Shown: positions 12,721-37,583, counted from the first letter of the stretch. The stretch: 64,000 nucleotides of DNA from Coriobacteriia bacterium (GCA_013336165.1 JAAXUF010000008.1:8743-72742); one strand, 5' to 3'. Notes: generated from the letters alone by a model not told the origin. Numbers and translations: made by a program.

Positions 12721-13932
12721 GTGATCACACCCGAGCAACGCTATTCAAAGTGGCGCACCACGGCGGTCATCGCTTGGGGGTCTATCGGTATTCTGGTGCT
12801 CATCGGCGCCGCCCTCGTCGGGATGTCGCACATTGTGAATGCGCTGGTTCCGTTCGCCCTCGCCCTCCTGTTTGCCTTCCTAATGCGTTCGCCCATCAAT
12901 GCGCTTGTTTCCCGGGGCTGGTCGCGCGGACTCGCCGCGCTGACTTGCATTCTGACCGTGTTCATTGTCATCGGAGGAGTGCTGACGTTCGTCATCCCGC
13001 CGATAGGGCGTCAGACGGTCGCGTTTGTCGGCGACATACCCAAGTACCTGACTCAAGTTGAGAATCTGATCGCGAGCCTCAGCGCCCGGTTTACCTTGGC
13101 GACCCTCCCTACATGGGTCAGCGACATCTCCACGGCCATCAGCGATCAGATGTCAGGGGTCGCGCTTGCGGCTGGGAACGGAATCGCAAAGGGTGTTGTG
13201 TCTGCTGGCAGCACCATGGCGACCGGAGTCTTCGACATATTCATCGGTTTCGTGATCGCCTACTGGATACTGAGGGATCTTCCCAAGATCCGCCAGGAAC
13301 TGGCAGTCTTGGCGGGGCCCAAGTACGAAAGAGATCTCGAGCATGCGCTGGCGACGATATCTCGCGTGGTCGGCGGCTACCTGAAAGGTCAGACCATCGC
13401 ATCGCTGGTTACCGGAACACTCGCGACCATCGGACTTGCGATACTTGGCGTGCCGTATGCGCTTGTGCTGGGACTAATGGTGTTCATCCTCAACTACGTG
13501 CCCTACATTGGGCCGATGATATCGGCTCTGGTCGCCGGTCTTGTGGGCCTTCTTGTGGGCCCATGGGTGGGAGTCGGCGCTGTGGCTGTGGTCGTTGTCG
13601 CGCAGAACGTCACCGACAACTTTGTGACGCCCCGCGTCATGTCCGAGCAAGTCGACCTGCATCCGACGCTCGTGATATTCTCGCTGCTCGTCGGCGGAGC
13701 GCTTTTTGGCATTCCGGGCATGGTGCTGGCGATCCCCGTGGCTGCAACGGCGAAGGGGCTGTTCGTCTATTACTACGAGCGCAAGACGGAGCGCTCGCTG
13801 GTCAGCGACGACGGCGCGCTATTCCGCAGGCAGGCCGGTCCGGCGCCTGAAGAGCCACGAGTGGTGCAGGACGACGAATCGGCCGCTGAGACACCTGATG
13901 ACATTCAAGAGAGCGCGAGGAACGATACGTGA
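12721..13932 (+). CDS. AI-2E family transporter (PerM/UPF0118)
   Basis: About 8 TM helices; the FLLNYVPYIGP motif is typical of the AI-2E family. Confidence 0.8.
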   Translation: MITPEQRYSKWRTTAVIAWGSIGILVLIGAALVGMSHIVNALVPFALALLFAFLMRSPINALVSRGWSRGLAALTCILTVFIVIGGVLTFVIPPIGRQTVAFVGDIPKYLTQVENLIASLSARFTLATLPTWVSDISTAISDQMSGVALAAGNGIAKGVVSAGSTMATGVFDIFIGFVIAYWILRDLPKIRQELAVLAGPKYERDLEHALATISRVVGGYLKGQTIASLVTGTLATIGLAILGVPYALVLGLMVFILNYVPYIGPMISALVAGLVGLLVGPWVGVGAVAVVVVAQNVTDNFVTPRVMSEQVDLHPTLVIFSLLVGGALFGIPGMVLAIPVAATAKGLFVYYYERKTERSLVSDDGALFRRQAGPAPEEPRVVQDDESAAETPDDIQESARNDT

Positions 13933-21935: not shown

Positions 21936-23609
21936 ATGGCGGTCACCCGAAGCACACGGCTCGGCAGGATTTTGGTCGGATCCGGTCTGATCAGCGAGAG
22001 CCAGCTTGCACAGGCGCTTGCGGTTTCGGGCGACCGGCCGCTGCCGGGCGTCCTGGAGGAATTGCATTTTGCGAGCGAGATCGCCGTGGCCAAATCGATT
22101 GCCGAGGTCATGCACGTCGATTTCATCGACATCGCGTCATACGATCTTGACCCGAATGCGGCGATCACCCTGAAGCCTGATCTGATGAGACGCCATCGCG
22201 TCTTGCCGGTGAAGATGCAAAACGGCGACCTCATTCTGGCGATGGCCGACCCGGCCGATCTGTTCGCGCTTGACGACGTTCGCATCGCCACGCGTAAGGA
22301 AATTCACCCGGTCGTCGCAGTCGAGCGCGACCTTCTGGCGGCCATAGAGCGTTTCACGGCCTCGCAAACCAACGTGAGCGGGATGGTGGGAGATCTTGAG
22401 GAGAGCGTCGGCTCGAACCTCGAAGACGAAGAGAGTGCCGAGGCGGGCGCGGAGTCGCCGGCTTCGCGTCTCATGAACCACATCGTGACAGATGCGATTC
22501 GCCGAGGGGCCGGCGACATCTACATCGAGCCAGGCGAGAACGACATGCGTATCCGGTTTCGCATCGACGGGGTATGTCAGGTGGTCGACGTCTTGCCCAA
22601 GAAGCTGCACCGCCAGCTCGTGAGCCGCCTGAAGATCAGCGCCGGTATGGACATTGCCGAGAGGCGCGTCCCGCAGGACGGCCGCTTTGGCGTCACCCTC
22701 GACGGCAAGGCGATCGACTTTCGAGTCGCCGTTCTCCCTCTGGTCTACGGCGAGCTGGCCGTGCTTCGGCTACTCAGGCGCGATTCGATCATGATGTCGC
22801 TCACGGACCTCGGCTTTCTTGAGCATAACCTCAAGCAGTTCCTGAACGCTCTCGCGCTGCCGTACGGCGCGATCCTTGTGACCGGGCCGACCGGCTCGGG
22901 CAAGTCGACCACGCTCTATGCTGCGATCAATGAGACGAGCGATCCCACAGCCAACCTCATCACCGTCGAGGATCCGGTCGAGTATCAGCTTGCAGGTCTT
23001 TCGCAGGTCCAAGTGAACGAGAAGGCCGGGCTCACCTTCGCCGCAGCACTGCGCTCGATTCTTCGCCAAGACCCGGACAAGGTGATGATCGGCGAGATTC
23101 GCGACAAAGAGACCGGCACGATCGCGATCGAGGCCGCACTAACCGGCCACTTGGTGTTGTCCACGCTACACACCAACGACGCCCCCTCGGCGATCACGCG
23201 TCTGACCGAGATGGGCATTGAGCCGTTCCTCTCGGCGTCCGCGCTCACGCTGGTGATGGCACAGCGTCTTGCCCGGCGCCTGTGCCCCGACTGCAAAGAG
23301 GTGTATCGGCCGGATGAGGAAGCCTTGCGCCGAATCGGGTTCCCGTTCGAGCCGGGCAAGGTCCCGCAGCTGTATCGGGCGCGCGGGTGCCGCAAGTGCG
23401 GCGGGGTAGGGTACCGGGGGCGTCTTGGAATCCACGAAGTCATGACGATGTCCGAGTCGATCCGCCAGCTGGTGGTCAGCCGAGTTTCCGCCGACGAAAT
23501 CGCAAAGCAAGCTGTGCGCGAGGGGATGCTCACTCTGCGAGACGACGGATTCGCGAAAGTGGCCATGGGTCAGACGTCGATCGAAGAAGTCCTGCGCGTC
23601 GTAGTCTGA
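21936..23609 (+). CDS. pilB: Type IV pilus assembly ATPase PilB/GspE-like, paralog 1 (with T2SSE_N domain)
   Basis: N-terminal T2SSE_N domain (LGRILVGSGLISESQLAQAL). Walker A GPTGSGKSTT, Asp box, Walker B VMIGEIRD, His box, and a tetracysteine motif CPDC...CRKCGG. Confidence 0.9.
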   Translation: MAVTRSTRLGRILVGSGLISESQLAQALAVSGDRPLPGVLEELHFASEIAVAKSIAEVMHVDFIDIASYDLDPNAAITLKPDLMRRHRVLPVKMQNGDLILAMADPADLFALDDVRIATRKEIHPVVAVERDLLAAIERFTASQTNVSGMVGDLEESVGSNLEDEESAEAGAESPASRLMNHIVTDAIRRGAGDIYIEPGENDMRIRFRIDGVCQVVDVLPKKLHRQLVSRLKISAGMDIAERRVPQDGRFGVTLDGKAIDFRVAVLPLVYGELAVLRLLRRDSIMMSLTDLGFLEHNLKQFLNALALPYGAILVTGPTGSGKSTTLYAAINETSDPTANLITVEDPVEYQLAGLSQVQVNEKAGLTFAAALRSILRQDPDKVMIGEIRDKETGTIAIEAALTGHLVLSTLHTNDAPSAITRLTEMGIEPFLSASALTLVMAQRLARRLCPDCKEVYRPDEEALRRIGFPFEPGKVPQLYRARGCRKCGGVGYRGRLGIHEVMTMSESIRQLVVSRVSADEIAKQAVREGMLTLRDDGFAKVAMGQTSIEEVLRVVV

Positions 23610-23756
23610 TCCGGCCCGACACCTTGAGGCCTGCAGTCGACGGACGTTGTGCCTGACCCCCCTTCGTGAGAACATTCGAGCGCGTCCCGACACTTGCCGA
23701 TAATCGAGTGGACCGGGCACACACCGTTGGAGACGAAGACCGAAAGGTACTCTGGG

Positions 23757-24131
23757 ATGAATGCAGTACTTGAGTCTCTCATCGGAAGCGAGCCTGAGAT
23801 AGAAGCTGCGGCATTTGTTCGAGGCGACGGCGCTGTCGAATCCTCAACCTTCCGTTCGAAGGCGCAGGAATCTCGCATCGGGGCAATGGCCGCAGCGATC
23901 GTTGATGTGTGCAATCGTGCTTCCGCCGAAATCGGCCGAGGCGAGCCGACGGAGGTGGCCATCGCGGGTGCGGACGGCTACGTCGCGATTGTCTCGGCGA
24001 AGGATGATAGGTACTTGGTATGTGCGACTTCCTTGGCGGCCGACGTTCGTACCGTGTTGGCAACCATGCGGGTGGTAGTGGATTCGAGCCAGACTGCCGG
24101 AGAGTGCGTCTCGCCGGCTCAACAGGGGTAG
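23757..24131 (+). CDS. Roadblock/LC7 (MglB/CvnB-like) domain protein
   Basis: About 124 aa with an alpha-beta-alpha Robl-like pattern (EIEAAAFVRGDGAVESS...AAAIVDVCNRA...VAIAGADGYVAIV). An alternative start lies at 23694. Confidence 0.6.
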   Translation: MNAVLESLIGSEPEIEAAAFVRGDGAVESSTFRSKAQESRIGAMAAAIVDVCNRASAEIGRGEPTEVAIAGADGYVAIVSAKDDRYLVCATSLAADVRTVLATMRVVVDSSQTAGECVSPAQQG

Positions 24132-24146
24132 GGGCGAGCGCTCCAC

Positions 24147-25310
24147 ATGGCACTGCGCGGCAATCTTCAGGATTTCAGCCTTCCGGATATCTTTCAGCTG
24201 GTGTCATACAGCAGAAAGAACGGGGTGCTACACCTGCACGGTGCTGACGGCCTTACCGGTGACGTCATGTTCCGAGAAGGCCAGATCGCCCATGCTAGGA
24301 GCGACCGGTGGAAGGAGCCGCTGGGCGAGCGGCTTGTACGTTCGCGCAAGATATCGCGCCAAGACCTCAAGTGCGCTCTCGAAATCCGAGATCATGGCGA
24401 CTCGGATGACAGGCGTCTCGGGCGGATCCTTATCGACACCGGCTGTGCGAGCGAAGATGTAGTCACGGACTTCGTTCGCGAGCAGGTACAGGAGACGGTT
24501 TTCGATCTCATGCAGTGGGAGGAAGGCGACTTCAGCTTCGAAGCGACTTCCGATGTCGTGGACGAAGATGTCGGCCCGGCACTCTCCATCGAGAACATCA
24601 TCATGGAGGGCAGCAGGCGGCTGGAGGAGTGGACCACCATCCGACGCAAGATCCCGTCGGCCGAGGTGGTGCTGGGGTTGGCTATCGCACCAGGGGACGG
24701 CGACGTCGACATCTCACTGAAGCCCGCTGAGTGGGCCCTGATGCCGTTCATCGACGGCCGACGCTCTGTCGCTACCATCGCATTTGAGTCCGGGCGCACG
24801 GAGTTCGAGGTCGCCAGAACGCTCTACGGGTTGCTGGGCGCCGGGCTGCTCGAGTTCGCCGAGACCGATGTCGACAGCGAGCAGGAGCCGCAAGCCGATC
24901 TCGCTGTCGTGACCGAGGAGCCGGTGCCCGCACAGGAAGAGGCGGAACTCGAACCGGAACCCGAACTAGAGCCGGAACCCCAACCCGAGCCGGTCTTCGT
25001 GATAGACGAACCCATCTACGAGACACTGCCGGTGGCCGAGCCGGAGATGCCGGCGGTCACCTCGCCTGAGGATGTGCCGCAAGGTCCACCACTCGCCCTC
25101 TTTGACGCCGAGCAGCCCGAGCCGACACCGGTATCCTTCGAGGGACTCGGCGAAGAGTTGTCTGCTCTGACTGGTGCAGAGCGCCGGGTGCGCCCGGAAG
25201 CACGGTCAGCGCCGGAACCGGACAGCCAACCCCGGGAGCCGTTGCGTTCCCGTTCTCAAATCAACAAGGACACTCTTCTCAAGGTCATAAATGGCCTGCG
25301 GAAGCTGTAG
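24147..25310 (+). CDS. DUF4388-like domain protein with an acidic P/E-rich disordered C-terminal half
   Basis: The N-terminus LRGNLQDFSLPDIFQLVSYSRKNGVLHL matches the DUF4388 signature. A second related block is present (PFIDGRRSVATIAFESGRTEFEVARTLYGLL), followed by EPEPELEPEPQPEP repeats. Confidence 0.55.
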   Translation: MALRGNLQDFSLPDIFQLVSYSRKNGVLHLHGADGLTGDVMFREGQIAHARSDRWKEPLGERLVRSRKISRQDLKCALEIRDHGDSDDRRLGRILIDTGCASEDVVTDFVREQVQETVFDLMQWEEGDFSFEATSDVVDEDVGPALSIENIIMEGSRRLEEWTTIRRKIPSAEVVLGLAIAPGDGDVDISLKPAEWALMPFIDGRRSVATIAFESGRTEFEVARTLYGLLGAGLLEFAETDVDSEQEPQADLAVVTEEPVPAQEEAELEPEPELEPEPQPEPVFVIDEPIYETLPVAEPEMPAVTSPEDVPQGPPLALFDAEQPEPTPVSFEGLGEELSALTGAERRVRPEARSAPEPDSQPREPLRSRSQINKDTLLKVINGLRKL

Positions 25311-25325
25311 AGAGAGCAAGGGTAC

Positions 25326-25850
25326 ATGCATTCGCTCAAGGTCGTCATCGTTGGTCCGGCGGGCTCCGGCAAGACGACGTTCATCGGCGCAGTGAGCGAG
25401 ATCACCGTGCTTTCGACCCGCCGCGAGATCGGTGCGGGTGGCAAGGATGCGGCGGACCGCATTGCGGTAGACATGGACTTCGGCCGGGTCACCCTTGCCG
25501 ACGACATCGTTCTCTACCTCTTTGGCACACCGGGGCATGAGCGCGTTTCCTTCATGTGGGAGACTCTTTCCGAGGGGTTGCTCGGCTTCGTGGTGCTGCT
25601 CGACAGTGAGAATTCGGCGTCTCTCGAAGAGGCCCGCGAGACAATTGCGTTTCTGAGGGGTGACTCCGAGTTGCCATTTCTGGTCGCGGCGAACAAGCTT
25701 GCACCGGATGACGCAGCGGCCGTCAAGCATTTGCGCACGTCGCTGCACCTGCCCGATGACATTCCGCTTGTTTCGGTAGATGCAAGAAGCAGAGAATCGG
25801 CAAAGCTAGTCCTTGAAGGTTTGGCGCAAGAAGCAGTGAGGAGAGGTTAG
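25326..25850 (+). CDS. Small Ras-like GTPase (MglA / CvnD 'ATP/GTP-binding protein' family)
   Basis: G1 GPAGSGKT, G3 FGTPGHERV, and an NKxD-like ANKLAPDD motif. 174 aa. Confidence 0.65.
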   Translation: MHSLKVVIVGPAGSGKTTFIGAVSEITVLSTRREIGAGGKDAADRIAVDMDFGRVTLADDIVLYLFGTPGHERVSFMWETLSEGLLGFVVLLDSENSASLEEARETIAFLRGDSELPFLVAANKLAPDDAAAVKHLRTSLHLPDDIPLVSVDARSRESAKLVLEGLAQEAVRRG

Positions 25851-26300
25851 ATGACCCCGGAGTTGAATCGGATCGCCCTTGTCGGCGGAGCGGGTCTCCT
25901 GCTGGTCGTCGCCATGATGGTGCTGATCGTCTCGGCTGTCCGTGGTTCCCGGGCACGGAAGCGGCAGAAGGCTGCGGCGGCGCAGTATGTCGCACCGCCC
26001 GAGAGCGGGCAGTCTCCGGCTCCGGCCGAGCCCCCGGTATCGCCTCCGGTCTGGGTTCAAGCCGAGGAGCCCCTGGCCCCGGAGCCTGTCGGCACGGCCG
26101 TTCTCCAGGAGATCGAGCCCGCCGACTTCTCCCCGGAAGAAGTGCCAGTCAAGTACGCGATGACCGCGCCGGCGGAGATGTGGTTCGACGATCTTCACGT
26201 CGGCGTCAAGGCAGAAAGCGTCACCGCCGAGCGTCTGCGCTACTATGCTGACATCCTATTGGATGAGGTACATAACTCCTCGTCGAAGCGCGAGCAGTAA
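25851..26300 (+). CDS. Hypothetical single-pass membrane protein with a P/E-rich linker
   Basis: The start abuts the GTPase stop (TAGATG). It has a TM helix (IALVGGAGLLLVVAMMVLIVSAV) and no recognised family. Confidence 0.45.
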   Translation: MTPELNRIALVGGAGLLLVVAMMVLIVSAVRGSRARKRQKAAAAQYVAPPESGQSPAPAEPPVSPPVWVQAEEPLAPEPVGTAVLQEIEPADFSPEEVPVKYAMTAPAEMWFDDLHVGVKAESVTAERLRYYADILLDEVHNSSSKREQ

Positions 26301-26321: not shown

Positions 26322-27995
26322 TTGGCAGACGCGGCACAAAGGCTCGGTGAACTACTCGTTCGGGCGGGCGTCATCACGGCCAGTCAGCGAGACGACGCCG
26401 TCCAGGTCCATGTCGCAACGGCTTCCCCGCTTGGCAAAGTGCTGGTTGAACTGGGCTATGCCAGCCACGGCGCGATCCTCGCGGTGGTGGCAAAGCAGAT
26501 CGGCATCGAGTACATGGATCTGAGCGAGCGTCGCCCCGAACCGGGCGCCGTTGCGCTCATACCGCGCGAAGTTGCGACGCGCTACATGCTGATGCCGCTC
26601 GAGATTCGGGGCAACACTCTTCTGGTTGCCATGGCCGATCCACAAAACGTGCTCACCATCGATCACGTCAGGATCATCACCGGGCACGAGATCAGACCCG
26701 CGATCTCGACGAAGAATGACATCCTTGAGGCGATCCGGCAGTACTACGATGTTGCCGATCGTGACGACAGTGACCTGCGCCTAGAAACAGACGAACCGGA
26801 CGACGAGGAACTCGGCCAGTTGGCGGACGTCGAGTCCGAGGCGCCTGCGGTCAAGCTCGTGAACTACATCATCCAGAAGGCCGTCAACGACCGGGCCTCA
26901 GACATCCACATCGAACCGCAACAAGATGAACTGCGCGTGCGGTTCCGGGTGGACGGCGTGCTCGTTGAAGCGACACCGCCGATCCCGAAGTCTACTCAGG
27001 CATCCATCATCTCGCGGTTCAAGATCATGGCCGACATGGACATCTCGGAGTCGCGTCGGCCTCAAGACGGCCATTGCTCAGTATCCGTGGGCGGGCAAAA
27101 GCTCGATGTGCGAGTCTCGTCGTTGCCGACGGTTTTTGGCGAGCGCATGGTCTTGCGTCTCCTGCGCAAGGACTCGATCCTGCTGCAGCTCTCGGATCTG
27201 GGCTTCCTGCCCTCGGCGAAGGACCGCTTTGAAGCCGCTTTCACCAAGCCGTACGGCGCGGTCTTGGTCACGGGTCCCACCGGTTCAGGCAAGTCGACCA
27301 CGCTCTACGCTGCGGTCAATGTGCTCAACGACCCGTCCCGCCACATCATGACCGCCGAGGATCCGGTGGAGTACCGGCTCGCCGGCGTGAATCAATGCCA
27401 GGTGAACCCCAAATTGGGAATGACCTTCGCGCGAGCGCTGCGATCGTTTCTGCGCTGCTCTCCCGATGTGATCTTGGTGGGGGAGATCCGCGACCAAGAA
27501 ACGGCCAAGATCGCGATTGAGTCCGCGCTCACGGGACACTTAGTGCTCTCGACACTGCACACAAATGACTCCGCATCCGCGATCACTAGGTTGATCGAGA
27601 TGGGCGTCGAGCCGTTTCTGGTCTCGTCGGCTGTCGATTGCGTGCTCGCGCAGCGTCTTGCGCGGCGGCTATGCCCAGAATGCCGACAGGCGTGGACGCC
27701 GGAATCCGGGGCGCTCATTAAACTGGGCTACGATGCCGATAGTCTTCCCGACGTCGTATACCGGGCCGTGGGTTGCAGAAAGTGCGGCGGCACCGGCTAC
27801 AAGGGACGCTTGGGAGTTCATGAGGTTCTCTTGGTTTCCGACGAGATCAGGAGGCTGTGTGTTTCTGAAGCGTCAGTAGAGGAAATCAGACGCACCGCCA
27901 TTGAGCAGGGCATGAGGACATTGCGGCAGGACGGTCTTGAGAAGGTTCGACAGGGTCTGACGTCGGTTGAGGAAATCGTTCGTGTGATAGTGTAA
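26322..27995 (+). CDS. pilB: Type IV pilus assembly ATPase PilB/GspE-like, paralog 2 (with T2SSE_N domain)
   Basis: Same length (557 aa) and about 60-65% identical to paralog 1 across the ATPase core. Walker A GPTGSGKSTT and tetracysteine motif CPEC...CRKCGG. Confidence 0.9.
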   Translation: MADAAQRLGELLVRAGVITASQRDDAVQVHVATASPLGKVLVELGYASHGAILAVVAKQIGIEYMDLSERRPEPGAVALIPREVATRYMLMPLEIRGNTLLVAMADPQNVLTIDHVRIITGHEIRPAISTKNDILEAIRQYYDVADRDDSDLRLETDEPDDEELGQLADVESEAPAVKLVNYIIQKAVNDRASDIHIEPQQDELRVRFRVDGVLVEATPPIPKSTQASIISRFKIMADMDISESRRPQDGHCSVSVGGQKLDVRVSSLPTVFGERMVLRLLRKDSILLQLSDLGFLPSAKDRFEAAFTKPYGAVLVTGPTGSGKSTTLYAAVNVLNDPSRHIMTAEDPVEYRLAGVNQCQVNPKLGMTFARALRSFLRCSPDVILVGEIRDQETAKIAIESALTGHLVLSTLHTNDSASAITRLIEMGVEPFLVSSAVDCVLAQRLARRLCPECRQAWTPESGALIKLGYDADSLPDVVYRAVGCRKCGGTGYKGRLGVHEVLLVSDEIRRLCVSEASVEEIRRTAIEQGMRTLRQDGLEKVRQGLTSVEEIVRVIV

Positions 27996-28033: not shown

Positions 28034-29242
28034 ATGACGACATTTGCATACGCGGTCAGGGACAAGTCCGGCAAGGTTGTGAAGGGCAAGCTTGACGGTG
28101 AGAGCCAAGCGGCTGTCCAGAGCAAACTCTCCCAAATGGGCTACATCATTCTCGAGCTGAGACAGCAAAGTGCGCTCATGTCGTTCGGGGCAATCAAGAT
28201 CGGCGGCAGCGTCAAGCCCAAGGAAGTCACGATCTTCGCACGTCAGTTCTCCACGATGATCCATGCGGGGCTCTCGCTCACGAAATGTCTGACGATTCTG
28301 TCGCAGCAGACCGAGAGTGCAGCGCTTAAGGAAGTCATCGCTCAGATTGGGAAGGACGTCGAAGCCGGGCAGTCGCTATCTGAGGGGCTTGCTAAGCATC
28401 CCAAGGTCTTTCCCCCGATCTTCGTAAGCATGACCCGCGCCGGAGAAATCGGTGGTGTTCTGGACGAGGTCTTGGCTCGTGTGGCGGATCACCTTGAGGC
28501 CGAACAGGCTCTCAAAGGCAAGATCAGGTCCGCAATGATGTATCCGATCGCGATCGGATGCCTAGTAGTCCTCATCCTGGCGGCAATGCTGATCTTCGTG
28601 GTTCCCATATTTGTTGAGATGTTTGCGGGCATGGGAGGTACGCTTCCCCTGCCTACCCAAATCCTCGTAGACTTTTCCAATTTGGTCACGAGTTTCTGGG
28701 GCCTTGTGATTCTAGCTGCGATCATCGCTGTGATCTGGTTTTTTCGCTGGTGGTCCAAGGGGGCGGGGAAGCTGGCGTGGGACCGGATCAAGCTGGGCAT
28801 GCCTGTCTTTGGGCCCCTGGTTCGAAAGATTGCTCTGGCTAGGTTCAGCCGGACCTTTGCGACACTGGTTTCCGCCGGTGTTCCGATCCTTCAAGCACTG
28901 GACATAGTCGCTGAGACATCGGGTAACGAGGTGATCTCTCTTGCTGTGAAGAAGTCGCGTGCTGCCATCAAGGAGGGCGAGACTATTGCCAAGCCGCTGT
29001 CGGAATCTAAGGTCTTCCCCCCGATGCTTGTTCAGATGATCAGCGTAGGCGAGGAAACCGGTGCGTTGGACACCATGCTCAACAAAGTTGCTGAGTTCTA
29101 CGATGAGGAGGTCGCCTCAGCAACGGATGGGCTGACATCGCTGATTGAGCCGCTCATGATGGTTACGCTCGGTCTGATAGTGGGAGGTATGGTGATAGCT
29201 CTGTACCTTCCGATGTTCAATGTGATAGCGTTAGTCAAGTAG
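28034..29242 (+). CDS. pilC: Type IV pilus inner-membrane platform protein PilC (two GspF/T2SSF domains)
   Basis: Two T2SSF repeats with 3 TM helices; typical length of 402 aa. Confidence 0.9.
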   Translation: MTTFAYAVRDKSGKVVKGKLDGESQAAVQSKLSQMGYIILELRQQSALMSFGAIKIGGSVKPKEVTIFARQFSTMIHAGLSLTKCLTILSQQTESAALKEVIAQIGKDVEAGQSLSEGLAKHPKVFPPIFVSMTRAGEIGGVLDEVLARVADHLEAEQALKGKIRSAMMYPIAIGCLVVLILAAMLIFVVPIFVEMFAGMGGTLPLPTQILVDFSNLVTSFWGLVILAAIIAVIWFFRWWSKGAGKLAWDRIKLGMPVFGPLVRKIALARFSRTFATLVSAGVPILQALDIVAETSGNEVISLAVKKSRAAIKEGETIAKPLSESKVFPPMLVQMISVGEETGALDTMLNKVAEFYDEEVASATDGLTSLIEPLMMVTLGLIVGGMVIALYLPMFNVIALVK

Positions 29243-29366
29243 GGGGGTGGTTTCATCGAAGACTCTTGGCGTGTCTCAAGTTTCGCGTCCATGCGTCGAT
29301 ATAGGAACTACAAACACAGTGGGCGAACCCACGCAGGTCCCCAAAAGGGGAAGGAGACTCGAGGAA

Positions 29367-29747
29367 ATGCAAGCATTTCGCAAGAACGATGAAGGCTTCA
29401 CGCTCGTAGAACTCATGGTCGTCGTTTTGATCATCGGTATCTTGGTCGCCATCGCGATCCCGGTATTCAACAACGCCAGCAACAACGCGCGTATCAAGTC
29501 TTGTCAGGCCAACATGCGAACCATTGAAGGCGCCTACCAGACGTACATGGCCAACAACGGCACGGCCATCACTGCCGCAACTACGGTTGTCTCGGGCGGG
29601 ATCTTGGTTCCGGGCTTCATTGCCGCTGTGCCTGCGTGTCCCTCCGATCCGAACTTCGGAACCACCACCGCCAAGACCCCCTACAGCTTGGCTACAACTG
29701 GCTTGACGGCCTGTCCGATCGTGCCTCTCACTCACATCCACTACTAG
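29367..29747 (+). CDS. Type IV pilin (prepilin with class III signal)
   Basis: The leader MQAFRKNDEG|FTLVELMVVVLIIGILVAIAIP carries a cleavage/methylation motif. 127 aa with 4 Cys in the C-terminal half. Confidence 0.85.
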   Translation: MQAFRKNDEGFTLVELMVVVLIIGILVAIAIPVFNNASNNARIKSCQANMRTIEGAYQTYMANNGTAITAATTVVSGGILVPGFIAAVPACPSDPNFGTTTAKTPYSLATTGLTACPIVPLTHIHY

Positions 29748-29754
29748 CATGCGA

Positions 29755-29810
29755 GACTCGCTGCCAAGGGTTCGCGGTTGGGTTTGTGCCGCGGCCCGTG
29801 GCAGCGAGTC
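29755..29810 (+). promoter_or_regulatory. Two-tier intergenic stem-loop between the tandem pilin genes (possible attenuator or terminator)
   Basis: A perfect 12-bp stem gactcgctgcca (29755-29766) pairs with tggcagcgagtc (29799-29810). The 32-nt loop contains an inner gcgg/ccgc stem. Confidence 0.5.
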
Positions 29811-29855
29811 CCTAAGGCGCGGCGATGTTTCCGAAGAAGGGGAAGCTGTACAGTT

Positions 29856-30236
29856 ATGATCAACTGGAGAAGACGGAACGAAGGTTTCACGCTCGTAGAA
29901 CTCATGGTCGTCGTTTTGATCATCGGTATCTTGGTCGCCATCGCGATCCCGGTGTTCACGAACGCCAGCAACAACGCGCGTATCAAGTCTTGTCAGGCCA
30001 ACATGCGAACCATTGAAGGCGCCTACCAGACGTACATGGCCAACAACGGCACGGCCATCACTGCCGCAACTACGGTTGTTCAGGGTGGGATCTTGGTTCC
30101 GACCTTCATTAAGGCGCCGCCCGTGTGTCCCTCAGATCCGAACTTCGGAACCACCACCGCCAAGACCCCCTACAGCTTGGCTACAACTGGCTTGACGGCC
30201 TGTCCGATCGTGCCTCTCACTCACATCCACTACTAG
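29856..30236 (+). CDS. Type IV pilin, tandem near-identical copy
   Basis: Leader MINWRRRNEG|FTLVEL.... The mature region is more than 90% identical at the nucleotide level to the upstream copy. Confidence 0.85.
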   Translation: MINWRRRNEGFTLVELMVVVLIIGILVAIAIPVFTNASNNARIKSCQANMRTIEGAYQTYMANNGTAITAATTVVQGGILVPTFIKAPPVCPSDPNFGTTTAKTPYSLATTGLTACPIVPLTHIHY

Positions 30237-30340
30237 AGGTCGTGGCTATAGTTGGCGGATTAAGACTCGGGCTCTCTTGATTCTTGAGCGCGCCGATCGT
30301 ATACGGGTGTAGCGATTGGTGATGAAGTGGCCCTCGCCAG

Positions 30341-31171
30341 ATGGGATTGGGTGGATCAGTGGCTGCGTATGTCCTTCTGGCGGCTCTAGGTTTTGTCTTT
30401 GGCTCATTCGCAAACGTCGTCATTTGGCGTCTTCCGCGCGGTGAATCGCTGAACCACCCTGGCTCGCATTGTCCAAAATGCAGTTCGTCAATTGCATGGT
30501 ATGACAACGTTCCGGTGCTCTCCTACATCTTCTTGGGCGGGCAGTGCAGGGTGTGTGGTGCTCGTATATCACTGCGCTATCCGATCGTTGAGCTGCTCTC
30601 GGCGCTGTTGTGGCTCGCCGCCGGAATTCGGTTTGGTATCACGCCTCAAGCTGCGTTCGCTATGGTCTTCTTCTTTCTTCTGCTCATCCTTGCCTTCATC
30701 GATATCGACACCATGCGTCTGCCTAACGCTCTCACGGCACTGCTGTTCGTGATCGGCGCCATCGGCGTGGGTGTCGCTCAATTTGCTCAAATGGCGCTGG
30801 TTCCGCTCCTGCCGGTTGCCGCTCTACCATGGGGGCCGGGTGTCTCTGCCCTGATCGGGGCGAGTCTGTCAGCGGGTCTGGCGTTGGCAATTGCCGCGGC
30901 GTATGGCAGTTTGAGGAAGACCCAAGGCTTCGGCATGGGCGACGTGAAGCTATTGGGGGTCATCGGCGTCTTCCTTGGCTTGTATGGCCTCATGGTCTTC
31001 TTCTTGGGCAGTGTGATGGGGGCGGTGTACGGCGTGATCGTGGCGCGCCGTAGCGGTGGATCGTTGCAGCATAAGTTCGCCTTCGGGCCGTTTCTGGCTC
31101 TCGCTGCAGTGTTGGTGACGTTGTTCGGACCAACGCTGTGGTATTCCTACCTTGGCATCTTCGCGGGATGA
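30341..31171 (+). CDS. pilD: Prepilin peptidase / N-methyltransferase (A24 family)
   Basis: A zinc-binding CPKC...CRVCG N-terminal region precedes a multi-TM body with catalytic Asp residues. Confidence 0.88.
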   Translation: MGLGGSVAAYVLLAALGFVFGSFANVVIWRLPRGESLNHPGSHCPKCSSSIAWYDNVPVLSYIFLGGQCRVCGARISLRYPIVELLSALLWLAAGIRFGITPQAAFAMVFFFLLLILAFIDIDTMRLPNALTALLFVIGAIGVGVAQFAQMALVPLLPVAALPWGPGVSALIGASLSAGLALAIAAAYGSLRKTQGFGMGDVKLLGVIGVFLGLYGLMVFFLGSVMGAVYGVIVARRSGGSLQHKFAFGPFLALAAVLVTLFGPTLWYSYLGIFAG

Positions 31172-31263
31172 TGGCTTAAGATTGCTTGTGGCAGTTACTC
31201 ACTATGGTATCATCAGCCACGTGATCGTGTAGATCTTGTGCAGGGCAACGGGAGGGGGAAGCG

Positions 31264-32388
31264 TTGGCTCGATCATCTTTTGGCGCTGCACCACTGCCCG
31301 TTGGTCTTGATGTGGGGACTGACAGGATTCGAGTGGCTCAGATCAAGCAGAGTGGTATCGGCAGGGCGCTGACTGCCTATGGATCGATCACGATGCCGCT
31401 CGGTGCCACGGTTGAGGGGGAGATCATCGATCCGACGATCGTTTCCTTGGCAATCAAGAACCTATGGAGAAGCGTAGGCCTTCGCTCCAAAGAGGTTTCG
31501 ATTGGCGTCTCGAACCAGAAGGTCATTGTCCGTCTGATTGACTTGCCATTCATGGACAAAGACGAACTCGCTGGGGCAATCCAGTATCAAGCTCAAGACT
31601 ACATCCCAATTCCCGTAGAAGATGCTGTACTCGATTTTCAGATTCTTGGCGATTACATGACGCCATCTGACGAGCACATGATGGAAGTGCTTCTCGTCGC
31701 TGCGCAGCGAGACATGATCGCCAATGTCGTTGCCGCGGTTGAGGGGGCGGGTCTACGACTTGCCTCTATCGATGTCACTGCGTTCGCACTGGTTCGGGCG
31801 CTGCTGGGCACGGAAACCTCATGGCTGGCCACGGAGTTCAACGATCCAAGCCAGGCCTTGGGGGTCGTGCACATCAGTTCAGGATTGACCACGATCGTGG
31901 TGCTAGAGCGAGGGATTCCGCGGTTCACCAGGGTTTCCTCTCTTGCCGGCAACCAGATGACACAAGCGGTTGCGACCGCTCTCAACATCACATTTGATGA
32001 GGCAGAAGCAATCAAGATCAAGGTCGGGCTGCCAAGTATGGACGGCACGCCCACCATCCCTGAGGGCGTCGACCCGGCTCAGGCGCAGGCCGCGCAGGAG
32101 ACAATTGAACGCGAAGCGGGGAAGTTGATCGCCGAGATCCGTCGTTCTTTCGACTACTACCTCACTCAGGCTAACGGGGTACACGGTGTCCAGAAGGTCT
32201 ATCTGACCGGCAATGGTGCACTTATGGGCAACCTGCCGGCGTATATGGAAAAAGGGCTGCAAGCGGAGGTGTGCTTGGGCGATCCGCTTGCGCATGTGCA
32301 GATTGCGGCTGCGGTTGAGCACTCCGTCGTCGCAGACCGAATGGGCTGCGCGGCTTCGATCGGTCTGGCACTTGGGGGTACCTTCTGA
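31264..32388 (+). CDS. pilM: Type IV pilus assembly protein PilM (actin-like ATPase fold)
   Basis: TTG start after the RBS gggaggggg. PilM/FtsA-like fold (VGLDVGTDRIRVAQI). Confidence 0.8.
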   Translation: MARSSFGAAPLPVGLDVGTDRIRVAQIKQSGIGRALTAYGSITMPLGATVEGEIIDPTIVSLAIKNLWRSVGLRSKEVSIGVSNQKVIVRLIDLPFMDKDELAGAIQYQAQDYIPIPVEDAVLDFQILGDYMTPSDEHMMEVLLVAAQRDMIANVVAAVEGAGLRLASIDVTAFALVRALLGTETSWLATEFNDPSQALGVVHISSGLTTIVVLERGIPRFTRVSSLAGNQMTQAVATALNITFDEAEAIKIKVGLPSMDGTPTIPEGVDPAQAQAAQETIEREAGKLIAEIRRSFDYYLTQANGVHGVQKVYLTGNGALMGNLPAYMEKGLQAEVCLGDPLAHVQIAAAVEHSVVADRMGCAASIGLALGGTF

Positions 32389-33050
32389 TGGTACACATCA
32401 ACCTTCTGCCTCGTGCCGTACTCAATCGCCGGCGCTATGAGCGGTGGTACCGCTACATCTTCATCATTGCGGTCGGCCTCGTGGCTTTGGTTCTGCTTCT
32501 CTCCGGCGCCCTGTGGCTGATGGTGCAACAGAAGACCGATACTCTGCAGAGCGCAAACGAGCAGGTTCAGCAATATCGAGCTCAATCGGATGCGCTTGCG
32601 GTGTTCGAACAAAACACGCAGACCTTGCAGGCCCGTCAAGCTGCTGTTCAGGCCGCCCTGTCGCAACGTGTTGACATGGGCAAGCTGGCCAACAACATCT
32701 CTCTGGTTCTTCCTAGTGAGGTCTGGCTCAAATCAATCACAATAGGACAAGAATCCGGAGTGCTCGTGGTGGGGAGTACTCCACGTTCAACGAGCCAGTC
32801 GATGGATGTCGCCTACAAGTCGATCGCCAAGACGCTTGTGCGATTGGGCGAACTCAAAGAACTATCCAGCGTATGGCTTTCGAGCGCTGCCAACACGATA
32901 TGGCAGGAATGGGCCGTGCAAAGTGGATCAGCCAAGCCGGATCCGATCAATGTGGTCGGTTTCCAGATCACAGGGAAGCTAGACAAGATCAAGGCGCTTC
33001 TGGATGCGCCTGCCGCCTCGTCCACCACGTCCGGTACTTCGGGCAAATAG
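32388..33050 (+). CDS. pilN: PilN-like protein
   Basis: Begins HINLLP, then a TM helix and a coiled coil. Its start overlaps the pilM stop. Confidence 0.75.
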   Translation: MVHINLLPRAVLNRRRYERWYRYIFIIAVGLVALVLLLSGALWLMVQQKTDTLQSANEQVQQYRAQSDALAVFEQNTQTLQARQAAVQAALSQRVDMGKLANNISLVLPSEVWLKSITIGQESGVLVVGSTPRSTSQSMDVAYKSIAKTLVRLGELKELSSVWLSSAANTIWQEWAVQSGSAKPDPINVVGFQITGKLDKIKALLDAPAASSTTSGTSGK

Positions 33051-33062
33051 GGAGAGGGGCGG

Positions 33063-33680
33063 ATGACGTTGTCACCAAGGAACAAGGTCATACTCACGAT
33101 AGTGGGATGCGTTATTGCGATAGCGGTACTAGCTGTTGCCCTGATGCTGCCCATGTACAATGAGCTAGGCAAGTTGGATACACAGATTTCGACGGCGGAC
33201 CAGCAGGCTGCGGTATTCAAGGCAAAGCTCGCTCAACGGCAGCAAATGAAAGATCAGTCTGCCAGCACGAACGCGACGTGGTTGCAGCTTACGAGCGCAG
33301 TACCGGAGAGCGCAAACCTACCTTCACTTATCATCGATTTGCAGGATGCTGCCTTTGCGAGTGGAGTCCAGTTAGTTGCGCTCACCCCCTCGGCGCCTAC
33401 CTCACCCACAGCGGCGGCCGGTGGAGTGCAAGCGACAACGAGCGCATACCTGATCATTCCAGTCCAACTTGAAATCATTGGAACCTGGTCAGACACGGTT
33501 GATTATCTGCAACGCATTCAGAAGCTGACCAGGAGTCTGCGCATCACGGAGTTCACTTCTACTGTGTCGGACAACGATACGCAGGCCAAGAAGGCAAATG
33601 CGACGTTGCCCGATTACTTCGAGGCAACCTCAATCAAGATCGAGGTCTATATGATTTCGGCGTCTGCGACGGGGAAGTAG
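33063..33680 (+). CDS. pilO: PilO-like protein
   Basis: N-terminal TM helix, coiled coil and a PilO-like C-terminal domain; positioned after pilN. Confidence 0.65.
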   Translation: MTLSPRNKVILTIVGCVIAIAVLAVALMLPMYNELGKLDTQISTADQQAAVFKAKLAQRQQMKDQSASTNATWLQLTSAVPESANLPSLIIDLQDAAFASGVQLVALTPSAPTSPTAAAGGVQATTSAYLIIPVQLEIIGTWSDTVDYLQRIQKLTRSLRITEFTSTVSDNDTQAKKANATLPDYFEATSIKIEVYMISASATGK

Positions 33681-37538: not shown

Positions 37539-37583
37539 ATACACTTGACTGGGATGTTCGGCAATGGGGATGCGGATTTGGAC

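What the first reader, a model, noticed from the sequence alone, without database searches (positions are those of the whole stretch)
23694..26300. Roadblock/LC7 + DUF4388 + MglA/CvnD-like GTPase module embedded between two PilB ATPases inside a type IV pilus locus
Four co-oriented, tightly packed genes sit exactly between the two PilB-like motor ATPases of the pilus cluster: a Robl/LC7 protein, a DUF4388-like protein with a P/E-rich acidic tail, a 174-aa Ras-like GTPase (G1 GPAGSGKT, G3 FGTPGHER) and a single-pass membrane protein. Roadblock+GTPase pairs are the MglA/MglB polarity switch that controls the PilB/PilT poles in Myxococcus, and the core of Streptomyces conservons (CvnB/CvnD). Here the module is physically inserted into the pilus operon and no sensor kinase (CvnA) is present. 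This predicts a GTPase switch that regulates or toggles the two pilus motors in a high-GC bacterium. A DUF4388 partner in this context has not, to my knowledge, been described.
Basis: partly seen in the sequence, partly recalled or inferred. Interest (0 to 1): 0.8.

Follow-up and report, generated by a model that had tools for sequence, protein, structure and literature searches.

The report
Small-GTPase regulator wired into pilus operon
An uncultured actinobacterium carries, inside its type IV pilus operon, a four-gene small-G-protein module whose middle protein has a domain known elsewhere to bind the pilus motor; the parts are of known kinds, but the pilus-operon setting and the fused exchange-factor-like domain were not found in the searchable literature.

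Summary
Four tightly packed + strand genes (Roadblock, PATAN/DUF4388 protein, 174-aa small GTPase, single-pass membrane protein) lie between two PilB paralogs in a Coriobacteriia-labelled MAG.

- The GTPase is not MglA proper. It belongs to the "GTPGQ" branch (Wuichet's MglA Group 5), and its nearest annotated relatives are conservon CvnD proteins (~41% identity).
- Roadblock-PATAN-GTPase triads were already catalogued in 2006 and 2014, and PATAN is known to bind PilB and PilC in cyanobacteria.
- Across Actinomycetota MAGs the conserved unit is Robl-PATAN-GTPase-small ORF-PilB, followed by PilT-PilC. The upstream PilB1 is lineage-specific and separable.
- In Chloroflexota, PATAN-GTPase pairs occur with no pilus genes nearby.

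New here:
- The region after the PATAN domain is a remote homologue of CvnC/DUF742, the conservon exchange factor.
- The PATAN insertion matches the c-di-GMP-binding fold of MshE and PilB.
- The window's GTPase has lost its switch-I threonines and its catalytic glutamine, and a sister lineage has also lost the P-loop.

Best reading: a kinase-less, conservon-like G-protein module coupled to the PilB2/PilC motor through PATAN, probably slow or locked in this lineage. Moderately interesting.

The parts
21936..23609 (+). PilB1: PilB-type ATPase paralog (557 aa), found only in this lineage and upstream of the module
   Evidence: Pfam T2SSE 4e-134 plus MshEN 3.6e-21. TIGR02538 scores 604.7, below its 675.65 cutoff. 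It is 48% identical to PilB2. Orthologs in L001, L003 and L019 are 64-65% identical. In L099 three toxin-antitoxin pairs separate it from the module.
23757..24131 (+). Roadblock/LC7 protein of CvnB/MfpD type; the presumed GTPase-activating protein (124 aa; the ORF could also start at 23694)
   Evidence: Pfam Robl_LC7 2e-9. PDB sequence hits are 7F8M at 2.4e-9 and CvnB5 (3LEQ) at 4.7e-5, with no MglB at E<=1. It contains the 'DG' pair (VRGDGAV) that Wuichet reports as conserved in partners of Group 2-5 GTPases.
24147..25310 (+). PATAN protein (387 aa): PATAN domain, CvnC/DUF742-like winged helix, acidic disordered linker and a C-terminal helix
   Evidence: Pfam DUF4388 2.6e-33. The AF2 model has pLDDT >90 for residues 1-240 and about 80 for 374-386. 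The family alignment is A2.
24315..24524 (+). Alpha-helical 'alpha-clip' insertion in the PATAN domain (aa 57-126), the same fold as the c-di-GMP-binding N-terminus of MshE and PilB
   Evidence: - PDB sequence hits: PilB N-termini 5TSG/6OLJ at E=4.8e-4, and MshE 5HTL.
- Foldseek: 5HTL rmsd 1.0 A over 58 columns at 33% identity; PilF GSPII-B 9GL5 and 8PFA.
- NCBIfam NF053729 scores 32.9 bits, below its cutoff of 38.
- It is 30% identical to the N-terminus of PilB2, E=9e-7.
- Motif 2 (R90-Q113) is canonical. Motif 1 lacks the Arg and the Gln.
24702..24866 (+). Winged-helix domain after PATAN (aa 186-240), a remote homologue of the DUF742/CvnC core
   Evidence: hhalign against DUF742 gives probability 80-89% and P=2.5e-6 to 1.5e-5. 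A DUF742 HMM places the post-PATAN region of PATAN proteins as 33 of its top 50 non-DUF742 hits among 6,478 ORFs, hypergeometric 5e-61. Pfam's own DUF742 model does not hit it.
24873..25253 (+). Acidic Pro/Glu-rich disordered linker (aa 243-369), containing the conserved 'ELSALTGxxxRxRP' motif
   Evidence: pLDDT is below 50 across most of it. Its length varies between homologues, which reach 678 aa in total. The ALTG..RP motif is conserved in the family.
25260..25307 (+). C-terminal amphipathic helix INKDTLLKVINGLRKL-COOH, shared with the DUF742 C-terminus
   Evidence: A closely similar C-terminal motif is kept in actinobacterial, Chloroflexota and Aquificota PATAN proteins that sit beside a GTPase. 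It is absent from PATAN homologues whose loci lack a GTPase. It aligns flush with the DUF742 C-terminus, hhalign P=1e-4 to 1e-3.
25326..25850 (+). Small GTPase of the CvnD / MglA-Group-5 branch (174 aa) with degenerate G2 and G3 motifs
   Evidence: - Pfam ATP_bind_1 1.8e-15.
- About 41% identical to CvnD proteins inside HK-Robl-DUF742-GTPase operons.
- Relatives carry TTVAMDFGR and GTPGQ. The window has IAVDMDFGR and GTPGH.
25851..26300 (+). Single-pass membrane protein (149 aa): N-terminal TM helix, a basic stretch, a Pro/Glu linker and a conserved cytoplasmic C-terminal block
   Evidence: No Pfam hit. Homologues of 164-340 aa occupy the same position in L001, L003, L006, L008, L019, L020 and L099. 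They share the block 'APxEhxF...VGVxxGxxTxxxhxxhAxhLLxxh'.
26322..27995 (+). PilB2: PilB-type assembly ATPase (557 aa), the conserved downstream partner of the module
   Evidence: Pfam T2SSE 1.3e-137 plus MshEN 4e-22. TIGR02538 scores 626.3, also below its 675.65 cutoff. NCBIfam c-di-GMP motif scores 39.7 bits, above its cutoff of 38. Orthologs are 67-69% identical, and it scores slightly higher than PilB1 against the single PilB of other Actinomycetota loci.
28034..33680 (+). Rest of the pilus operon: PilC, two pilins, prepilin peptidase PilD, PilM, a PilN-position gene and PilO
   Evidence: Pfam T2SSF, N_methyl (twice), A24_N_bact/Peptidase_A24, PilM_2 and PilO.

Best explanation
This is a kinase-less, conservon-like small-G-protein module built into the type IV pilus operon, and it most likely regulates the PilB2/PilC motor.

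Components and proposed roles:
- The GTPase belongs to the CvnD / MglA-Group-5 branch.
- The Roadblock protein is its GTPase-activating partner. This is inferred by analogy with MfpD and MglB.
- The PATAN protein does two jobs.
  - Its C-terminal half (winged helix plus terminal helix) is a remote homologue of CvnC/MfpC, the conservon exchange factor. It is predicted to engage the GTPase.
  - Its N-terminal PATAN domain, which carries a PilB-like alpha-clip insertion, is predicted to dock on the N-domain of PilB and/or the cytoplasmic domain of PilC.
- The fourth gene tethers a small conserved cytoplasmic block to the membrane next to the machine.

Proposed output: control of whether, and perhaps where, PilB2 engages the PilC platform.

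In this particular lineage the GTPase keeps its P-loop but has lost the switch-I threonines and the catalytic glutamine. It probably acts as a slow or locked nucleotide-binding adaptor rather than a fast switch. The alpha-clip may add c-di-GMP input.

Shown here: domain identities, synteny, motif states and remote homology. Inferred: all protein-protein contacts, the GAP and GEF roles, and the effect on pili.
For: - Domain identities.
- Operon-tight spacing with no internal terminator.
- Synteny. Robl-PATAN-GTPase directly upstream of pilB is kept across Actinomycetota MAGs labelled Coriobacteriia, Frankiales, Nanopelagicales, Actinomycetes and Actinomycetota, with GTPase identities down to 38-46%.
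- The nearest annotated relatives of the GTPase are CvnD proteins in HK-Robl-DUF742-GTPase operons. The PATAN gene occupies exactly the DUF742 position.
- Homology of the post-PATAN region to DUF742:
  - hhalign probability 85-90%, P about 2e-6, reaching the C-terminus of both.
  - About 12 SD above column-shuffled nulls.
  - The DUF742 HMM ranks PATAN proteins as 33 of its top 50 foreign hits, hypergeometric 5e-61.
  - The shared C-terminal helix occurs only in GTPase-linked PATAN proteins.
- Published biochemistry: MfpC (DUF742) is a GEF and MfpD (Roadblock) a GAP for MfpB (PMC11343762).
- The PATAN domain of PixE binds PilB1, and PatA-type regulators bind the PilC N-domain.
- The alpha-clip insertion matches the MshE/PilB c-di-GMP fold and PilB2's own N-terminus.
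Against: - No interaction was tested.
- Pfam's DUF742 model hits none of 30 family members even at E<=10, so the CvnC link rests on profile-level evidence only.
- PATAN-GTPase pairs in about 45 Chloroflexota MAGs have no pil genes within 10 kb. The pair is therefore not intrinsically a pilus device.
- The window GTPase lacks the G2 Thr-Thr and the G3 Gln. The L099 homologue lacks the P-loop Lys as well. GTP cycling may be irrelevant here.
- The c-di-GMP motif is only half canonical and scores below the NCBIfam cutoff. The motif is not conserved in other Actinomycetota or Chloroflexota homologues.
- Everything comes from MAGs.
Confidence: 0.55

Rival explanations
1. A Myxococcus-style dynamic GTPase polarity switch toggles activity or localisation between the two PilB motors.
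For: Two active-looking PilB paralogs flank the module: Walker A and B, the His box and the tetracysteine motif are all intact. No PilT is present in the window, or in the loci that carry PilB1. The two PilBs differ in their N-terminal c-di-GMP motifs, so a selector is conceivable.
Against: - The GTPase lacks the Group 1 MglA hallmarks of TVPGQ and an arginine finger.
- The catalytic Gln and the switch-I Thr are lost here, and the P-loop is lost in L099.
- The conserved partner across Actinomycetota is a single downstream PilB followed by PilT.
- PilB1 is separable from the module by inserted toxin-antitoxin genes.
Confidence: 0.12
2. The module is a static assembly or anchoring adaptor. A pseudo-GTPase, a Roadblock dimer, the PATAN scaffold and the membrane protein form a structural platform that recruits PilB2 to PilC, with no nucleotide-dependent switching.
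For: GTPase motifs decay progressively within this sub-lineage (P0002, then the window, then L099), yet the ORF and its structural core (MDFGR, LYLFGTPG, LLGFVVLxD) stay intact. The PATAN protein has a long disordered acidic linker, and the fourth gene is membrane-anchored in this lineage.
Against: The window copy keeps an intact P-loop, an NK in G4 and DAR in G5, so it probably still binds nucleotide. The Roadblock partner is retained. Most relatives (P0003-P0120, and the Actinomycetota pilus-linked loci) have fully canonical motifs.
Confidence: 0.25
3. It is a generic conservon-type signalling module that controls something else, such as gene expression or metabolism, and merely lies in the pilus locus.
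For: The closest annotated relatives are conservon CvnD proteins, which regulate secondary metabolism or antibiotic tolerance. Chloroflexota PATAN-GTPase pairs are not next to pil genes.
Against: - All 10 Actinomycetota loci that extend far enough downstream have pilB immediately after the module, across orders.
- Intergenic spacing is operon-tight.
- The PATAN domain has a documented PilB/PilC-binding function.
- No sensor kinase is present.
Confidence: 0.08
4. It is primarily a c-di-GMP receptor. The MshEN-like alpha-clip of the PATAN protein binds c-di-GMP and relays it to PilB, with the GTPase secondary.
For: The insertion superposes on c-di-GMP-bound MshE at 1.0 A rmsd and 33% identity, and on PilF GSPII-B. 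Motif 2 is fully canonical, RLGxxLIxxGxxxxxxVxxxVxxQ. A GAF-GGDEF gene sits next to the Chloroflexota pair in L029.
Against: - Motif 1 lacks the Arg and the Gln.
- The NCBIfam score of 32.9 is below the 38-bit cutoff.
- The RLG motif is not conserved in other Actinomycetota homologues (GVGVA) or in Anaerolineae homologues (ELG).
- PilB2 already carries its own above-cutoff motif.
Confidence: 0.2

Closest known systems
MglA Group 5 GTPase - PATAN - MglB gene neighbourhoods (Makarova et al. 2006; Wuichet & Sogaard-Andersen 2014, PMC4316618, Table S2: Acidothermus cellulolyticus Acel_1323 '<MglA<PATAN<MglB', Anaerolinea ANT_06780 '<MglA<PATAN')
   Same: The same three protein families in the same order. 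The GTPGQ-type G3 and the Thr-Thr G2 are present in the relatives.
   Different: Those entries are catalogue lines with no function assigned, and no pilus context is recorded in that table. Here the triad is co-operonic with pilB and carries a fourth gene. The window's GTPase has degenerate G2 and G3.
Actinobacterial conservon / AGPS (CvnA-D; Mfp system of mycobacteria)
   Same: - A CvnB-like Roadblock: the PDB hit CvnB5, 3LEQ.
- A GTPase about 41% identical to CvnD.
- Gene order Robl-X-GTPase, with X carrying a DUF742-like domain.
- GAP and GEF roles are established for MfpD and MfpC.
   Different: - No CvnA-type histidine kinase in 64 kb.
- X is a PATAN fusion that Pfam's DUF742 model does not recognise.
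- G4 is ANK[VL] rather than NxF[DE].
- The associated output genes are pilus motor genes, not P450, GAF or MfpA.
Cyanobacterial PatA-type regulators (PixG, PixE, LsiR) of Synechocystis
   Same: A PATAN domain with the alpha-clip insertion. PATAN is the output domain that binds PilB1, and PatA-type regulators bind the PilC N-domain, to control pilus assembly.
   Different: Those proteins are PATAN-REC response regulators fed by chemotaxis-like or photoreceptor systems. Here there is no receiver domain. PATAN is fused instead to a CvnC-like domain and paired with a small GTPase and a Roadblock protein.
Myxococcus xanthus MglA/MglB (with RomR-RomX and SgmX) polarity module
   Same: A small Ras-like GTPase plus a Roadblock GAP that controls type IV pilus formation. 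PATAN proteins turned up among the candidates in the SgmX study.
   Different: MglA is Group 1, with TVPGQ and an intrinsic arginine finger. It is not encoded in the pil operon, it acts through SgmX, and its GEF is RomR-RomX. The window protein shows no significant similarity to MglA structures at E<0.01.
MshEN c-di-GMP-binding domain of MshE / PilB / PilF
   Same: The PATAN insertion has the same two-hairpin fold and one canonical 24-residue motif.
   Different: It is inserted into a PATAN domain rather than placed at the N-terminus of an ATPase. The first motif is degenerate, and binding is untested.

Membership tests
Roadblock/LC7 (Pfam PF03259) | Match to the family HMM above its gathering score | tested here: met
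   37.5 bits against a cutoff of 23, E=2e-9, covering 86 of 91 profile positions. PDB hits 7F8M and CvnB5 3LEQ.
PATAN / DUF4388 (Pfam PF14332) | Match to the family HMM, with an alpha-helical insertion | tested here: met
   115.1 bits against a cutoff of 25. The match spans aa 4-162 for a 122-position profile, so an insertion is present. The modelled insertion is helical, H59-H122.
MglA proper (Wuichet Group 1) | G3 TVPGQ and an intrinsic arginine finger next to the G2 threonine | tested here: not met
   G3 is GTPGH (GTPGQ in relatives). The G2 region has no Arg-Thr. No MglA structure appears among PDB hits at E<0.01.
MglA Group 5 (Wuichet 2014) | G2 Thr in place of the Arg finger, G3 GTPGQ, NKxD-like G4, occasional PATAN neighbour | tested here: inconclusive
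   - The family meets the definition: TTVAMDFGR, GTPGQ, ANK[VQ], and an adjacent PATAN gene.
- Acidothermus and Anaerolinea examples are listed as Group 5.
- The window copy itself has lost the Thr-Thr and has Gln replaced by His.
Conservon / AGPS | CvnA-type sensor histidine kinase in synteny | tested here: not met
   A kinase HMM built from three conservon kinases gives no hit at E<1e-3 anywhere in the window. The same HMM gave no hit at E<1e-4 in any of the 13 Actinomycetota Robl-PATAN-GTPase loci.
Conservon / AGPS | CvnC = DUF742 protein encoded between the Roadblock and the GTPase | tested here: inconclusive
   The Pfam DUF742 model hits 0 of 30 family members at E<=10. Profile-profile comparison gives probability 85-90%, P about 2e-6. 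A DUF742 HMM enriches for PATAN proteins at 5e-61. The gene position is identical.
Conservon / AGPS | CvnD-type GTPase (G4 NxFD, G5 DAR, an insertion of about 8 aa before G2) | tested here: not met
   G5 DAR is present. G4 is ANKL, and the pre-G2 insertion is absent. Identity to CvnD is about 41%.
MshEN c-di-GMP receptor motif (NCBIfam NF053729) | Two tandem RLGxx(L/V/I)(L/V/I)xxG(L/V/I)(L/V/I)xxxxLxxxLxxQ motifs; score at or above 38 bits | tested here: inconclusive
   The score is 32.9 bits, below the cutoff. Motif 2 is canonical and motif 1 lacks R and Q. The fold matches c-di-GMP-bound MshE at 1.0 A. Ligand binding cannot be tested here.
Type IVa pilus assembly ATPase PilB (TIGR02538) | Equivalog score at or above 675.65, plus T2SSE and MshEN domains | tested here: inconclusive
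   PilB1 scores 604.7 and PilB2 626.3, both below the equivalog cutoff. Both are the best NCBIfam match, and both have full-length T2SSE plus MshEN domains.

The most novel reading that the evidence does not exclude
The PATAN protein is a single-chain 'GEF plus effector'. Its CvnC-like half loads or holds the CvnD-like G protein, and its PATAN/alpha-clip half mimics the PilB N-terminus and competes for the PilC platform.

In this apparently PilT-less locus, the module would then decide which of two PilB paralogs powers the pilus, for example extension against retraction or two pilin cargos. c-di-GMP would act as a second input.

More generally, conservons and PATAN-GTPase modules would be one ancient three-component G-protein system (Roadblock GAP, CvnC-fold GEF, GTPGQ GTPase) with interchangeable input and output domains.
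Probability: 0.15. Interest if true: 0.8.

Novelty: new variant of a known kind. Interest (0 to 1): 0.5.

Why it matters
How type IV pilus motors are switched on, positioned or selected is understood in only a few proteobacteria and cyanobacteria. It is essentially unknown in Actinomycetota.

- This locus gives independent genomic support for an idea so far tested only in Synechocystis: that PATAN is an ancient pilus-motor-binding output domain. It ties that domain to a small G protein rather than to a response regulator.
- The CvnC/DUF742-like domain behind PATAN, if confirmed, would link two systems treated separately in the literature: actinobacterial conservons (AGPS) and MglA-Group-5/PATAN modules. 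It would also give conservon research a case where the output is obvious from gene context.
- The stepwise loss of GTPase motifs in one sub-lineage is a natural experiment on whether such modules need GTP turnover.

The limits are real. All components are known families, the triad was catalogued a decade ago, nothing is tested biochemically, and the carriers seen here are MAGs.

Tried and rejected
- **Fold search against AFDB.** The afdb50 library was unavailable, so the post-PATAN model could not be compared with predicted CvnC structures.
- **DUF742 structure model.** An AF2 model from 9 sequences was too poor to use (pLDDT 41), so the third fold search was not spent on it.
- **Direct Pfam test for DUF742.** This was negative on the isolated segment and on all 30 family members. 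Only weak generic winged-helix hits appeared (MarR_2, HVO_A0114).
- **Homologue search seeded with a DUF742 protein.** It returned only 9 sequences. The profile was enlarged from plasmid and genome conservon loci instead.
- **Membrane protein against small ORFs elsewhere.** I tried to link the C-terminal block of the membrane protein to the 60-110 aa ORFs that follow the GTPase in other Actinomycetota. This is not significant: HMM E=3.2 and hhalign P=0.008 at 5% probability. It is kept only as a note.
- **Foldseek on the whole model.** No PDB hit reached E<0.001.
- **Distant PATAN homologues.** Those in Acidobacteria-type MAGs have TPR neighbours, not GTPase or pilus genes. They were rejected as members of this system.
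- **Literature searches that found nothing relevant.**
  - DUF4388+Roadblock returned no paper, and DUF742+PATAN returned no paper.
  - roadblock+pilB+pilT+Actino returned two papers and Acidothermus+pilB three; none describes this arrangement.
- **Promoter and terminator scan.** Uninformative, at background level.

Full report
**What is in the window**

The window matches a contig of a MAG deposited as 'Coriobacteriia bacterium'. An identical GTPase, P0001, sits on a 72.7-kb contig.

The region is one long + strand gene array: alaS, ruvX, mltG, ABC transporter genes, a HAD hydrolase and aroE. Then come PilB1 (21936-23609), Roadblock (23757-24131), the PATAN protein (24147-25310), the GTPase (25326-25850), a membrane protein (25851-26300) and PilB2 (26322-27995). 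These are followed by PilC, two pilins, PilD, PilM, a PilN-position gene, PilO, one unassigned gene, and then aroC, aroK and aroB.

- Robl_LC7 E=2e-9.
- DUF4388/PatA_N E=2.6e-33.
- GTPase: ATP_bind_1 1.8e-15, Arf 1e-6.
- The fourth protein has one N-terminal TM helix followed by a basic stretch, so its C-terminus is cytoplasmic.

Gaps inside the module are 0-21 bp. No terminator-like signal above background separates the genes. No conservon-type kinase and no PilT are detectable in the 64 kb with the profiles used.

**Conservation**

Homologues of the GTPase at 53-64% identity are numerous in metagenomes. Every long contig I inspected has the same order, aroE-PilB-Robl-PatA_N-GTPase-X-PilB-PilC-pilin-pilin-PilD. 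These are L001, L003 and L006-L008 and L099.

A scan of one genome per species returned 80 loci, which I annotated with my own HMMs. They fall into three classes:
- **Class A: 13 Actinomycetota MAG loci** labelled Coriobacteriia, Frankiales, Nanopelagicales, Mycobacteriales, Actinomycetes or Actinomycetota. They have Robl-PATAN-GTPase, then usually a small ORF, then PilB, PilT and PilC. The second ATPase matches only the core of the PilB profile, so it is PilT-like.
- **Class B: about 45 Chloroflexota (Anaerolineae) MAGs and one Aquificota MAG.** They have a compact PATAN (about 275 aa)-GTPase pair, occasionally with a Roadblock gene downstream, and no pil genes within 10 kb. The neighbours in two of these loci include GAF-GGDEF and REC-GGDEF genes.
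- **Class C: 24 canonical conservons**, HK-Robl-DUF742-GTPase, in Streptomyces, Rhodococcus, Mycobacterium and Nocardia.

The association with pilB is therefore conserved across Actinomycetota orders, but the PATAN-GTPase pair is not restricted to pilus loci.

The 'between two PilBs' layout is specific to one lineage: the window, L001-L008, L019 and L099.
- PilB1 and PilB2 are old paralogs. Orthologs are 64-69% identical, and each is about 51% identical to the single PilB of other class A loci.
- In L099 three toxin-antitoxin pairs lie between PilB1 and Robl, while Robl through PilB2 stays contiguous.

The conserved unit is the module plus the downstream PilB.

**What kind of GTPase it is**

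It is not MglA proper. No MglA structure appears among PDB hits at E<0.01. G3 is GTPG(Q/H) rather than TVPGQ, and there is no arginine finger.

On plasmids, the best annotated matches (about 41% identity, E 1e-22 to 1e-29) sit in canonical conservon operons wherever the operon was examined. The Roadblock protein likewise hits CvnB5 (3LEQ) and not MglB.

In Wuichet and Sogaard-Andersen's scheme the family corresponds to MglA Group 5. Their Table S2 lists Acidothermus cellulolyticus Acel_1323 as '<MglA<PATAN<MglB' and Anaerolinea ANT_06780 as '<MglA<PATAN'.

A motif comparison separates the PATAN-linked GTPases (G1 GPFxAGKT, G4 ANK[VQ]) from CvnD (GGFGxGKT, N[CE]F, an extra loop before G2). All share TTVAMDFGR and LFGTPGQ.

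**A degenerating G protein**

The window copy and its two nearest relatives deviate step by step:

| Protein | G1 | G2 | G3 | G4 | G5 |
|---|---|---|---|---|---|
| P0002 | intact | Thr-Thr lost | Gln kept | ANRL | DAR |
| Window | intact (GSGKTT) | Thr-Thr lost | Gln to His | ANKL | DAR |
| L099 homologue | lost (GRDTS) | Thr-Thr lost | Gln to Asp | VNQR | lost |

All remain intact ORFs with the structural core conserved. This argues that, in this sub-lineage, the protein's role no longer depends on normal GTP turnover. His at the catalytic position is not necessarily dead, because translational GTPases use DxPGH (my own knowledge). The loss of the Mg/gamma-phosphate-sensing threonines is harder to compensate.

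**The PATAN protein**

The AF2 model is confident for residues 1-240 and for a C-terminal helix at 374-386. Residues 243-369 are disordered and acidic.

(a) *The helical insertion (aa 57-126).*
- It matches the N-termini of Geobacter PilB and of MshE by sequence.
- It superposes on c-di-GMP-bound MshE at 1.0 A over 58 columns with 33% identity.
- It aligns over its whole length with PilB2's own N-terminus, at 30% identity and E=9e-7.
- Its second 24-residue motif is canonical and its first is degenerate. The NCBIfam score is just below the cutoff.
- That PATAN insertions resemble the N1 'alpha-clip' of PilB was already noted by Makarova 2006 and by Han et al..

(b) *The region after the Pfam domain* (a linker helix containing IENIIMEGSRRLEEW, a winged helix, and the C-terminal helix INKDTLLKVINGLRKL-COOH) appears to be a remote homologue of CvnC/DUF742. 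The evidence:
- Identical gene position, immediately upstream of the GTPase.
- hhalign of the compact Chloroflexota versions against a 38-sequence DUF742 profile gives probability 85-90% and P about 2e-6, running to the C-terminus of both.
- The actinobacterial winged helix alone gives 89%, and the tail alone P=1e-4.
- Scores lie about 12 SD above column-shuffled controls.
- In a specificity test, a DUF742 HMM searched against all 6,478 non-DUF742 ORFs of the 80 loci returned PATAN proteins as 12 of its top 15, 22 of its top 30 and 33 of its top 50 hits. These always aligned to the post-PATAN region (hypergeometric 2e-23 to 5e-61).
- The C-terminal helix is present in every GTPase-linked PATAN protein examined. 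It is absent from PATAN homologues whose loci lack a GTPase.

Against this, Pfam's own DUF742 model does not detect any member, and I could not obtain a usable DUF742 structure. I put this homology at roughly 75%. No paper in the searchable library holds both terms.

**Mechanism**

Established facts from the literature:
- MfpD (Roadblock) is a GAP and MfpC (DUF742) a GEF for the conservon GTPase MfpB (PMC11343762).
- The PATAN domain of PixE is sufficient to bind PilB1 and to reverse phototaxis, and PatA-type regulators bind the PilC N-domain.

Combined with the anatomy above, the most economical model is as follows. The Roadblock and the CvnC-like half of the PATAN protein set or read the state of the G protein. 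The PATAN half transmits that state to PilB2/PilC, possibly by mimicking or competing with the PilB N-terminus. The membrane protein holds a small conserved cytoplasmic block at the machine.

In this lineage the G protein is probably slow or locked. Every contact in this model is inferred.

Three specific points do not: the MglA analogy, the 'toggle between two PilBs', and the claim that a DUF4388 partner is undescribed.

The triad is a known, catalogued but uncharacterised kind. As far as the searchable literature shows, the following are new:
- its hard-wiring into actinobacterial pilus operons;
- the CvnC-like domain behind PATAN, which links these modules to conservons;
- the motif decay in the window's lineage.

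I rate it a new variant of a known kind, of moderate interest.

Noticed in passing
window 13929-37092: The whole type IV pilus cluster is inserted into the conserved actinobacterial block alaS-ruvX-mltG ... aroE | aroC-aroK-aroB. The same insertion site is seen in L001, L003, L006 and L099.
   Followed up: partly
window 37545-39949: A 583-aa protein combines a prepilin N-methylation signal with CarboxypepD_reg/SpaA/SdrD-type Ig-like repeats, which makes it a candidate giant minor pilin or tip adhesin. A second N_methyl protein of 218 aa follows it. In L099 the homologue lies inside the pil operon.
   Followed up: no
window 21936-22100 and 26322-26500: The two PilB paralogs differ in their N-terminal c-di-GMP motifs. 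PilB2 reaches the NCBIfam cutoff (39.7 bits against 38). PilB1 keeps only the first half-motif (26.1 bits). The difference is conserved in their orthologs.
   Followed up: partly
window 25326-25850; L099:11443-11970: GTPase motifs are lost stepwise within one sub-lineage. P0002 has lost the G2 Thr-Thr. The window has also changed the G3 Gln to His. L099 has additionally lost the P-loop GK[ST], the NK of G4 and the DAR of G5. All remain intact ORFs.
   Followed up: yes
L052:10551-10883, L053:10543-10803, L064:10559-10801, L071:10545-10832, L074:10543-10776: Other Actinomycetota loci carry a conserved 77-110 aa ORF right after the GTPase. It has an N-terminal 'RRxGRHA' and a C-terminal 'RVxLGFxDGSxxxL...A..L' (a sixth, more divergent 61-aa candidate is L042:7473-7658). 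Similarity to the C-terminal block of the window's membrane protein is only suggestive (hhalign P=0.008).
   Followed up: partly
L099:7324-9387: Three toxin-antitoxin pairs (Unstab_antitox, twice, and PhdYeFM/ParE) are inserted between PilB1 and the Roadblock gene in the closest long-contig relative.
   Followed up: no
L029:6652-9015 and 13010-13909: In an Anaerolineales genome the PATAN-GTPase pair is flanked by a GAF-GAF-GGDEF gene and lies near a REC-GGDEF gene. This hints at a c-di-GMP connection for the non-pilus version of the pair.
   Followed up: no
[not shown]
   Followed up: no
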